Origin: a virus
Lineage: Duplodnaviria; Caudoviricetes
DNA length: 64,000 nucleotides
Reading direction: 5' to 3' (one strand)
Virus record (IMG/VR): IMGVR_UViG_3300021124_000003
Coordinates: 1 to 64,000 of that record
The position numbers and the translations under genes were made by a program. Position 1 is the first letter of the stretch; each line of letters begins with the position of its first letter. Shown piece after piece: positions 10,482-10,542 of the stretch. The notes under the pieces were generated by a model. The model worked only from the letters and a program-made list of their open reading frames with translations. It was not told the DNA's origin and made no database searches.

Positions 10482-10542
10482 TGGCGAAGAGGCCAGCTTA
10501 AGCTAGGTCGCATACGCGACGTTTGCTCTAGCCCGTCTCTTC
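10482..10542 (-). ncRNA. Miniature tRNA-like RNA ending in encoded CCA
   Basis: GAAGAG/CTCTTC stem plus G and CCA; internal hairpins GTCGC-GTAT-GCGAC and CTAGC-TTAA-GCTGG. Confidence 0.6.

What the first reader, a model, noticed from the sequence alone, without database searches (positions are those of the whole stretch)
10482..10542. 61-nt miniature cloverleaf with tetraloop arms and an encoded 3' CCA
Seen: GAAGAG/CTCTTC-G-CCA acceptor-like stem, a D-arm remnant (GGGCTAGAGC) and two 5-bp hairpins with 4-nt loops (GTAT, TTAA), the second stacked where a T arm would be. An alternative rod fold (GCTAG/CTAGC) exists. It is the only unit of the array with an encoded CCA, and tRNA finders would probably miss it. 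Inference: a chargeable minihelix-like RNA or a substrate/decoy for the adjacent hydrolase.
Basis: partly seen in the sequence, partly recalled or inferred. Interest (0 to 1): 0.7.

Follow-up and report, generated by a model that had tools for sequence, protein, structure and literature searches.

The report
CCA-tailed hairpin RNA in phage tRNA array
A 61-base stretch in a phage's cluster of odd tRNA genes most likely encodes a rod-shaped RNA that copies only the amino-acid-accepting end of a tRNA (helix, G, CCA), and unrelated rods of the same build fill the same slot in related phages, but what they do is untested.

Summary
The shape is different: the predicted fold is a 20-bp rod (-28.6 kcal/mol, z -4.06). 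It beats the proposed mini-cloverleaf by 10 kcal/mol.

The unit fills a tRNA slot in a four-unit array between a broken Pth2-like gene and a PDDEXK nuclease gene. No sequence relative was found in 186 related loci, in one IMG/VR pattern scan or in the phage database.

The architecture does recur. In related Pth2-linked arrays, unrelated rods ending in N-CCA sit directly upstream of the terminal tRNA, which has a 9-nt (8-nt in L007) anticodon loop. These are in L022, L023, L081 (two), L103, L012, L112 and L007. A CCA follows the closing helix in 17 of 35 non-tRNA units, against 0 of 25 on the opposite strand and 14 of 250 in shuffles.

Best reading: an anticodon-less acceptor-arm mimic, probably cut out by RNase P, that acts through its G-CCA end. 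Charging and any link to the hydrolase are untested. A decayed remnant remains possible.

Other windows of this scan noted similar CCA-tailed minihelices on other phage DNA. My searches found no paper describing them.

The parts
10482..10542 (-). Unit 3, the finding: a 61-nt rod RNA with about 20 bp in five helical segments, plus a 3' G-CCA
   Evidence: MFE -28.6 kcal/mol, z -4.06, all rod pair probabilities at least 0.94. No tRNA or Rfam hit. Single copy in the 72.8-kb record.
10537..10542 (-). 5' strand of the closing (acceptor-like) helix, GAAGAG. The preceding C (10543) can pair with G10485 to make a seventh pair
   Evidence: the in-context fold closes with 7 bp.
10486..10491 (-). 3' strand of the closing helix, CUCUUC
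   Evidence: pair probabilities at least 0.99.
10482..10485 (-). Encoded G-CCA tail. This matches the RCCA motif that bacterial RNase P RNA pairs with
   Evidence: Sequence. The RCCA-L15 pairing is described in PMC4919922.
10507..10520 (-). Apical hairpin GUCGC-GUAU-GCGAC
   Evidence: pair probabilities at least 0.99. On the plus strand it was flagged as a weak terminator-like site with a poor T run.
10543..10605 (-). Unit 2: a weakly folding unit without a D arm, with a T-arm-like GUGG-UUCAAAC-CCAC. It ends A-CC and abuts unit 3 with no spacer
   Evidence: z -0.5.
10609..10692 (-). Unit 1: called tRNA-Ala(GGC) by ARAGORN, but the anticodon arm is an extended stem capped by a UUCG tetraloop. 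It is therefore an anticodon-less tRNA look-alike
   Evidence: No Rfam tRNA hit at E up to 10. Analogous first units occur in L009, L017 and L018.
10403..10477 (-). Terminal tRNA-Cys(GCA) with a 9-nt anticodon loop and no encoded CCA. It lies 4 nt downstream of unit 3
   Evidence: 44.8 bits; 9 loop positions.
10700..11076 (-). Pth2-like gene, readable here only across frame breaks. The array begins 7 nt after its stop codon
   Evidence: PTH2, 17.5 bits for the last frame. Relatives score above the Pfam cut-off. A family profile matches Pth2 structure 1rzw at E 3.7e-4.
9813..10367 (-). Downstream gene: PDDEXK_15 phage endonuclease
11059..11086 (-). Promoter-like site upstream of the Pth2-like gene and the array
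   Evidence: 10 of 12 consensus matches only.

Best explanation
Unit 3 is a small RNA gene of an anticodon-less class: a rod-shaped hairpin whose base copies a tRNA acceptor end (helix, purine discriminator, CCA).

Inferred pathway:
- It is transcribed with the Pth2-like gene and the other three units.
- RNase P cuts at its 5' G. The same cut leaves the upstream unit ending in A-CC.
- RNase P cleavage at the 5' end of the tRNA-Cys, followed by exonuclease trimming of CUUU, exposes the encoded G-CCA.

A rod has no T-loop elbow, so I infer the CCA-adding enzyme and RNase Z would not handle it well. That would explain why its CCA is encoded while the decoding tRNA's is not.

Without an anticodon or T loop it cannot decode. 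It most likely works through its 3' end, as a competitor, decoy or dedicated substrate for something that recognises tRNA acceptor ends: a 3'-end-modifying toxin, a synthetase, or the Pth2-like hydrolase.

Shown: sequence, fold prediction, context and recurrence of the architecture. Inferred: transcription, processing and function.
For: - Stable rod with a single-stranded G-CCA tail: z -4.06, 0 of 200 shuffles as stable.
- It sits in register in a tRNA array, 0 nt after unit 2 and 4 nt before the tRNA-Cys.
- Unrelated rods with N-CCA tails lie directly upstream of the terminal tRNA in L022, L023 (also G-CCA), L081 (two), L103, L012, L112 and L007. That tRNA has a 9-nt anticodon loop (8-nt in L007).
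- A CCA lies within 0-2 nt of the closing helix in 17 of 35 non-ARAGORN closed units. Controls give 0 of 25 on the reverse complement, 14 of 250 in shuffles and 0 of 16 in upstream DNA. Binomial P is 9e-13 overall; for rods, 5 of 8, P 2.7e-5.
- Of the rods that follow another unit, five including this one (L022, L103, L012, L007 and here) start immediately after that unit's A-CC, with no spacer; in L023 the upstream unit ends A-CU.
- Encoded CCA is found in 23 of 46 non-terminal ARAGORN-called units but only 11 of 60 terminal tRNAs.
- The related two-hairpin mini units keep their pairing through compensatory changes, at 3 of 19 pairs in only 4 sequences.
- A 3' RCCA pairs with bacterial RNase P RNA, and RNase P cuts non-tRNA substrates, including phage regulatory RNAs (PMC4919922).
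Against: - No sequence homologue of this rod was found anywhere, so there is no covariation for it.
- The rods of relatives also have no homologues among the loci held. Class support is therefore convergent architecture, not shared descent.
- The locus looks partly decayed in this virus. The Pth2-like gene has an extra frame break, unit 1 lacks a CCA, and unit 2 folds no better than shuffles.
- No expression data exist.
- The plus strand folds as well as the minus strand.
- No target of the acceptor end has been identified.
Confidence: 0.55

Rival explanations
1. It is a decayed remnant. A former tRNA or anticodon-less tRNA look-alike lost its D loop and T loop by deletion. It survives, without function, in a locus that is degenerating in this virus.
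For: - GGGCUAGAGCAA aligns with the 3' half of unit 1's D arm, GGUAGAGCAA.
- The Pth2-like gene is broken. The 98%-identical protein P0001 in the protein collection is also only a 63-aa C-terminal piece.
- Unit 1 lacks a CCA, and unit 2 folds at z -0.5.
- No homologue of the rod was found.
Against: - Random decay of a cloverleaf should not create 8 new base pairs between former D-arm and T-arm sequence, or a fold at z -4.
- This is the one unit that keeps a perfect RCCA tail.
- Independent rods with N-CCA tails sit in the same slot in eight other cases.
Confidence: 0.2
2. It is a processing or insulating module with no trans-acting role. The hairpin supplies an RNase P (or RNase III) cut that sets the upstream unit's 3' end at A-CC. 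It may also keep neighbouring tRNA-like units from misfolding, or protect the upstream RNA from 3' exonucleases.
For: - The A-CC-then-rod junction with no spacer recurs in five arrays including this one.
- RCCA strengthens RNase P binding of its substrates (PMC4919922).
- RNase P separates polycistronic tRNA transcripts (PMC2190699, abstract).
- The rod always lies immediately 5' of the terminal tRNA.
Against: - The next tRNA already supplies an RNase P site, so an extra module is not obviously needed.
- L081 carries two such rods in tandem directly after the stop codon, with no upstream unit to trim.
Confidence: 0.15
3. One reading: a miniature cloverleaf with two stacked tetraloop hairpins that acts as a chargeable mini-tRNA.
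For: Both 5-bp hairpins can be drawn, and the second abuts the 3' acceptor strand.
Against: - It is 10 kcal/mol less stable than the rod, with a Boltzmann weight of about 6e-8.
- It has no T-loop motif and no anticodon loop.
- There is no tRNA-model hit at E up to 10.
- The analogous units in relatives are unambiguous rods.
Confidence: 0.04
4. It is a chance palindrome or a plus-strand element such as a terminator.
For: The plus strand folds at z -4.0. The inner hairpin was flagged as a weak plus-strand terminator-like site.
Against: - No plus-strand gene ends there. The neighbouring genes and tRNAs are all on the minus strand.
- The T run is poor.
- The CCA tail and the array register exist only on the minus strand. 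The reverse-complement control gave 0 of 25.
Confidence: 0.03

Closest known systems
Synthetic acceptor/T-stem minihelices and hairpin model substrates of bacterial RNase P and aminoacyl-tRNA synthetases (own knowledge; tRNA identity review PMC9976931 listed; RCCA recognition in PMC4919922)
   Same: A continuous helix whose base is an acceptor-like stem, a purine discriminator, a single-stranded CCA, G at +1, and no anticodon.
   Different: This one is natural and phage-encoded. It is longer (about 20 bp with internal loops, against 12 bp) and is capped by a 4-nt loop rather than a 7-nt T loop. Neither processing nor charging has been shown.
Small stable RNAs embedded in phage tRNA clusters: T4 RNAC and RNAD (PMC3014915)
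   Same: Non-tRNA small RNA genes transcribed from a phage tRNA region, with unknown biological role.
   Different: I know of no sequence or size relationship; by my recollection the T4 RNAs are larger. I did not compare sequences because none was at hand.
Natural non-tRNA RNase P substrates: pre-4.5S RNA and the C4 antisense RNA precursor of phages P1 and P7 (PMC4919922, its reference 206)
   Same: Hairpin-type RNAs matured by RNase P, one of them phage-encoded.
   Different: Those are stand-alone regulatory or SRP RNAs with known roles. They do not sit in tRNA slots of an array. RNase P cleavage of unit 3 is only inferred.
tmRNA tRNA-like domain and coding-region-less tmRNA variants (own knowledge; also named in scan note e1-1943703)
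   Same: An anticodon-less acceptor-end mimic used in translation-related rescue.
   Different: Unit 3 lacks the G3:U70 pair and A73 alanine identity (it has A3-U70 and G73). It also lacks a T arm and any match to a tmRNA model.
CCA-tailed minihelices noted elsewhere in this scan (e1-5325526, e1-5889013, e1-5733862, e1-5694202; AI notes, not checked by me)
   Same: Hairpin plus N-CCA, placed one or a few bases before the next tRNA of a phage array. One case lies in an operon built around tRNAs with four-base anticodons.
   Different: These are on different DNA, mostly shorter (36-45 nt), and share no sequence similarity with unit 3.

Membership tests
tRNA (Rfam RF00005, ARAGORN) | Cloverleaf with D, anticodon and T arms that scores against the tRNA covariance model | tested here: not met
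   No tRNA hit on 10482-10542 at E up to 10. ARAGORN finds nothing there, even at a 60% score threshold or in mitochondrial modes.
tRNA (Rfam RF00005, ARAGORN) | 7-nt anticodon loop and a T loop (UUCRANY type) | tested here: not met
   The only loops that can be drawn are GUAU and UUAA tetraloops.
Minihelix-type RNase P substrate | Coaxial helix of about 12 bp or more starting at the cleavage site | tested here: met
   About 20 bp in a rod with small internal loops, pair probabilities at least 0.94.
Minihelix-type RNase P substrate | Single-stranded 3' RCCA, and G at +1 | tested here: met
   G-CCA at 10485..10482 and G at 10542. The motif is defined in PMC4919922.
Minihelix-type RNase P substrate | Actual cleavage by RNase P | not testable with these tools
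   Needs an in vitro assay or 5'-end mapping.
CCA-tailed rods of Pth2-linked phage arrays (class defined here) | Closed hairpin followed within 0-2 nt by CCA, on the array strand | tested here: met
   Unit 3 has G-CCA. Class enrichment is 17 of 35, against 0 of 25, 14 of 250 and 0 of 16 in controls.
CCA-tailed rods of Pth2-linked phage arrays (class defined here) | Slot directly 5' of the terminal tRNA with an enlarged anticodon loop, downstream of a Pth2-like gene | tested here: met
   Here it lies 4 nt before the tRNA-Cys with its 9-nt loop. The same slot is used in L022, L023, L081, L103, L012, L112 and L007.
CCA-tailed rods of Pth2-linked phage arrays (class defined here) | Sequence homology among members | tested here: not met
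   No rod matches any other rod or unit 3. The class is architectural only.
Alanine minihelix / tmRNA tRNA-like domain | G3:U70 pair and A73 | tested here: not met
   Position 3-70 is A-U and the discriminator is G.
Intrinsic terminator | GC-rich hairpin followed by a U tract on the transcribed strand | tested here: not met
   On the minus strand the helix is followed by GCCACUUUGG. Only a weak plus-strand site was called.
Aminoacylatable RNA | Charging by a synthetase | not testable with these tools
   The purine-rich 5' strand plus G73 reminds me of tRNA-Ser acceptors. That is from memory only, is not tested, and the host is unknown.

The most novel reading that the evidence does not exclude
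The CCA-tailed rods, together with the anticodon-less cloverleaves beside them, are functional acceptor-end RNAs that work with the Pth2-like hydrolase in one of two ways. Either they are decoys that soak up host defence toxins that modify or cut tRNA 3' ends. Or they are charged, accept nascent chains from stalled ribosomes without any codon (a natural puromycin-like rescue), and the hydrolase then recycles them.
Probability: 0.1. Interest if true: 0.9.

Novelty: new variant of a known kind. Interest (0 to 1): 0.5.

Why it matters
Minihelices are a classic laboratory tool for studying RNase P, synthetases, EF-Tu and the CCA-adding enzyme. Natural genes for them are not described in the papers I could search.

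If phages really make anticodon-less RNAs with a CCA tail, that points to a use of the tRNA acceptor end outside decoding. It could be a decoy, a carrier or a processing handle.

The link here to a Pth2-like hydrolase and to tRNAs with 9-nt anticodon loops gives a concrete system in which to test this. This instance adds three testable regularities:
- the rod slot just before the terminal tRNA;
- the junction in which the rod follows A-CC with no spacer;
- an encoded CCA on the non-decoding units but mostly not on the decoding ones.

Tried and rejected
I could not reach the contigs of the two closest Pth2-like proteins: P0001 (98% identical) and P0002 (71%, Logan assembly).
- The PDDEXK neighbour gave no related viral loci.
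- A 36-sequence alignment was too diverse for locus finding. A 10-sequence alignment worked.
- Megablast and blastn against the phage database gave only generic tRNA matches.
- blastn-short of unit 3 against all loci gave nothing.
- A gapped IMG/VR pattern for unit 3 gave no matches.
- My first helix-plus-T-hairpin unit finder was far too permissive, and I dropped it.
- The rods of relatives have no homologues among the loci, so covariation could not be tested for any rod.
- UAUGC at the apex of the rod is complementary to GCAUA in the tRNA-Cys loop. No other rod shows such a match to its own tRNA, so I treat it as chance.
- I considered a phage attachment (attP) core. No integrase turned up among the genes scanned, and an attachment core would not need the 5' acceptor strand.

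Full report
**Observation**

The window is an IMG/VR virus record of 72.8 kb, estimated 77% complete. The finding lies on the minus strand. Read 5' to 3', the RNA runs:
- GAAGAG (10542..10537);
- an internal segment containing GGGCUAGAGC;
- the hairpin GUCGC-GUAU-GCGAC (10520..10507);
- CUAGC-UUAA-GCUGG;
- CUCUUC (10491..10486), then G (10485) and CCA (10484..10482).

ARAGORN and Rfam call nothing on it, even at E up to 10 or in relaxed and mitochondrial modes. It occurs once in the record.

**Fold**

The 61-mer folds at -28.6 kcal/mol. Dinucleotide shuffles average -17.4, giving z -4.06, and 0 of 200 shuffles are as stable. The minimum-energy structure takes 70% of the ensemble.

The proposed miniature cloverleaf evaluates at -18.6 kcal/mol, with a Boltzmann weight of about 6e-8. 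The pair probabilities of its T-like hairpin are 0.0.

In context, the C before the first G can pair with G10485 to give a 7-bp closing helix. The plus strand folds equally well. The strand is therefore assigned from context and from the CCA.

**Context**

On the minus strand the order is:
- a promoter-like site;
- a Pth2-like gene, readable only across frame breaks (10700-11076);
- unit 1 (10692..10609). ARAGORN calls it tRNA-Ala, but its anticodon arm is a long stem capped by UUCG, and Rfam does not recognise it;
- unit 2 (10605..10543). It is poorly folded (z -0.5) and ends A-CC;
- unit 3, with no spacer;
- CUUU;
- a tRNA-Cys with a 9-nt anticodon loop and no CCA;
- a PDDEXK nuclease gene.

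The gene family next door is a divergent PTH2 family. Relatives pass the Pfam cut-off, and a family profile matches archaeal Pth2 structure 1rzw at E 3.7e-4.

**Search for relatives**

The nearest accessible loci were reached through the Pth2-like protein:
- 80 metagenome loci, 73 viral loci from the second alignment search plus 7 from the first two searches, and 26 loci from genomes and metagenome-assembled genomes (MAGs);
- the best is 70% identical in protein sequence;
- the MAGs are mostly Myxococcota.

Unit 3 has no sequence match in any of them, in the phage database or in an IMG/VR pattern scan. There is therefore no covariation evidence for this rod.

**The architecture recurs**

In the related loci the Pth2-like gene is usually followed, 5-9 nt after its stop codon, by a packed array. 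Folding the stretches ARAGORN leaves uncalled shows three kinds of anticodon-less unit:
- cloverleaves whose anticodon arm ends in a tetraloop (L018 GAAA, L017 GCAA, L009 CUCG);
- two-hairpin minis without a D arm (L029 group, L033);
- plain rods.

The rods are in L022, L023, L081 (two in tandem, 15 and 13 bp), L103, L012, L112 and L007. Each is followed at once by N-CCA; in L023 it is G-CCA, as here. Each lies directly 5' of the terminal tRNA, which has a 9-nt anticodon loop (8-nt in L007).

Counted automatically, a CCA lies within 0-2 nt of the closing helix in 17 of 35 closed units from these gaps. Controls give 0 of 25 on the reverse complement, 14 of 250 in shuffles and 0 of 16 in upstream DNA of the same loci. 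Binomial P is 9e-13 overall. For rods alone it is 5 of 8, P 2.7e-5.

Two further regularities:
- Of the rods that follow another unit, five including this one (L022, L103, L012, L007 and here) begin immediately after that unit's A-CC; in L023 the upstream unit ends A-CU.
- An encoded CCA is found in 23 of 46 non-terminal ARAGORN units but only 11 of 60 terminal tRNAs.

The rods share no sequence with one another, so the class is one of architecture and position. The mini units without a D arm show a few compensatory changes (3 of 19 pairs in 4 sequences). That is weak support that the non-tRNA units are kept as structures.

**Most likely mechanism (inferred)**

The array is co-transcribed with the Pth2-like gene.

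Bacterial RNase P recognises a helix carrying a 3' RCCA, which pairs with loop L15 of its RNA. It also cleaves non-tRNA hairpin substrates, including phage regulatory RNAs (PMC4919922). It separates polycistronic tRNA transcripts as well (PMC2190699).

- A cut at the rod's 5' G would free the rod and leave unit 2 ending in A-CC.
- A cut at the tRNA-Cys, plus trimming of CUUU, would expose the G-CCA.

A rod has no elbow for the CCA-adding enzyme or RNase Z to hold (my inference). That fits the pattern of an encoded CCA on the non-decoding units.

With no anticodon, the product can act only through its acceptor end: as a competitor, decoy or substrate for a factor that reads tRNA 3' ends. The literature reading of phage PTH2 as a helper in ribosome rescue after tRNA damage (PMC7824862) makes a translation-conflict role plausible. 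Nothing here shows that the rod meets the hydrolase.

**Rivals**

- *Decayed remnant* (0.2). The locus shows decay. The Pth2-like gene has an extra frame break, and the 98%-identical protein P0001 is likewise only a 63-aa piece. Unit 1 has no CCA, and unit 2 folds poorly. GGGCUAGAGCAA aligns with the D-arm half of unit 1. However, decay does not build eight new pairs and a z of -4, and this is the one unit with a perfect RCCA.
- *Pure processing or insulating hairpin* (0.15). This explains the junction after A-CC and the RCCA. It does not explain tandem rods placed straight after a stop codon, as in L081.
- *Mini-cloverleaf* (0.04). Disfavoured on energy.
- *Plus-strand or chance element* (0.03). 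It fits neither the gene layout nor the strand-specific CCA signal.

**Comparison with known things**

Unit 3 works like a synthetic minihelix or an RNase P hairpin substrate. It meets the sequence-level criteria (helix, G+1, RCCA), but cleavage is untested.

It is not a tRNA, because the tested features are not met. It is not an alanine minihelix or tmRNA-like domain, because it has A3-U70 and G73.

The nearest natural precedents are the T4 RNAC and RNAD RNAs of unknown role in the T4 tRNA region (PMC3014915) and the P1/P7 C4 RNA precursor (PMC4919922).

My literature searches found no paper on natural phage minihelix genes.

The scan itself has noted CCA-tailed minihelices in phage tRNA arrays on other DNA, in at least 16 findings. 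These include an operon built around four-base-reading tRNAs. They are unchecked AI notes and I do not count them as evidence.

**Verdict**

Unit 3 is most likely a member of an undescribed architectural class of phage acceptor-end mimics. It has no sequence conservation, no expression data and no known function, and it sits in a locus that may be decaying. Interest is moderate.

Noticed in passing
window 10609-10692 (-): ARAGORN's 'tRNA-Ala(GGC)' is an anticodon-less look-alike. It has normal acceptor, D and T arms, but its anticodon arm is an extended stem capped by a UUCG tetraloop. Rfam gives no tRNA hit. Analogous first units, with CUCG, GAAA or GCAA caps and an encoded ACCA, start 5-9 nt after the Pth2-like stop codon in L009, L018 and L017.
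   Followed up: partly
window 10700-11076 (-): The Pth2-like gene is split over three frames. One shift is at AUGC, near the start. A second is at UCCCCCUGGUGA, inside the conserved GESSPG motif. The 98%-identical protein P0001 is only a 63-aa C-terminal piece, so the second break is probably shared by a close relative rather than a read error.
   Followed up: partly
L022, L023, L081, L103, L012, L112, L007 and window 10403-10477: The terminal tRNAs of these arrays have 9-nt anticodon loops (8-nt in L007), for example AGUAAUGAC and AUUGAAUAA. Six of the seven plus the window's tRNA-Cys lack an encoded CCA (L112's ends G-CCA), while the anticodon-less units before them often have one.
   Followed up: partly
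L081, first 84 nt after the Pth2-like stop: Two tandem near-perfect minihelices (15 bp with a GAAA loop, 13 bp with a larger loop). Both start GCGGGGG and both end CUCCCGC-ACCA.
   Followed up: partly
L017 2142-2486 (-): A tmRNA gene lies just downstream of one of the Pth2-linked arrays, on the opposite strand.
   Followed up: no
window 10512-10516 (-) versus the tRNA-Cys loop: The apex of the rod reads UAUGC. This is complementary to GCAUA in the 9-nt loop of the neighbouring tRNA-Cys, and it contains the AUGC word of the gene's shift site. Other rods show no such match, so it is probably chance.
   Followed up: partly
window 565-2394 (-): A DEAD/ResIII helicase interrupted by a HINT or intein-like domain (PT-HINT E 1e-8; Intein_splicing weak).
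   Followed up: no
L162-L187: Genome and MAG copies of the Pth2-like family are mostly in Myxococcota bins (Polyangiaceae, Archangiaceae, Nannocystaceae, Kofleriaceae). This hints at the host range of these phages.
   Followed up: no
window 11059-11086 (-): The promoter-like site TAGACA-16-TATACT overlaps the first AUG of the leader frame. Transcripts may therefore start downstream of that AUG.
   Followed up: no
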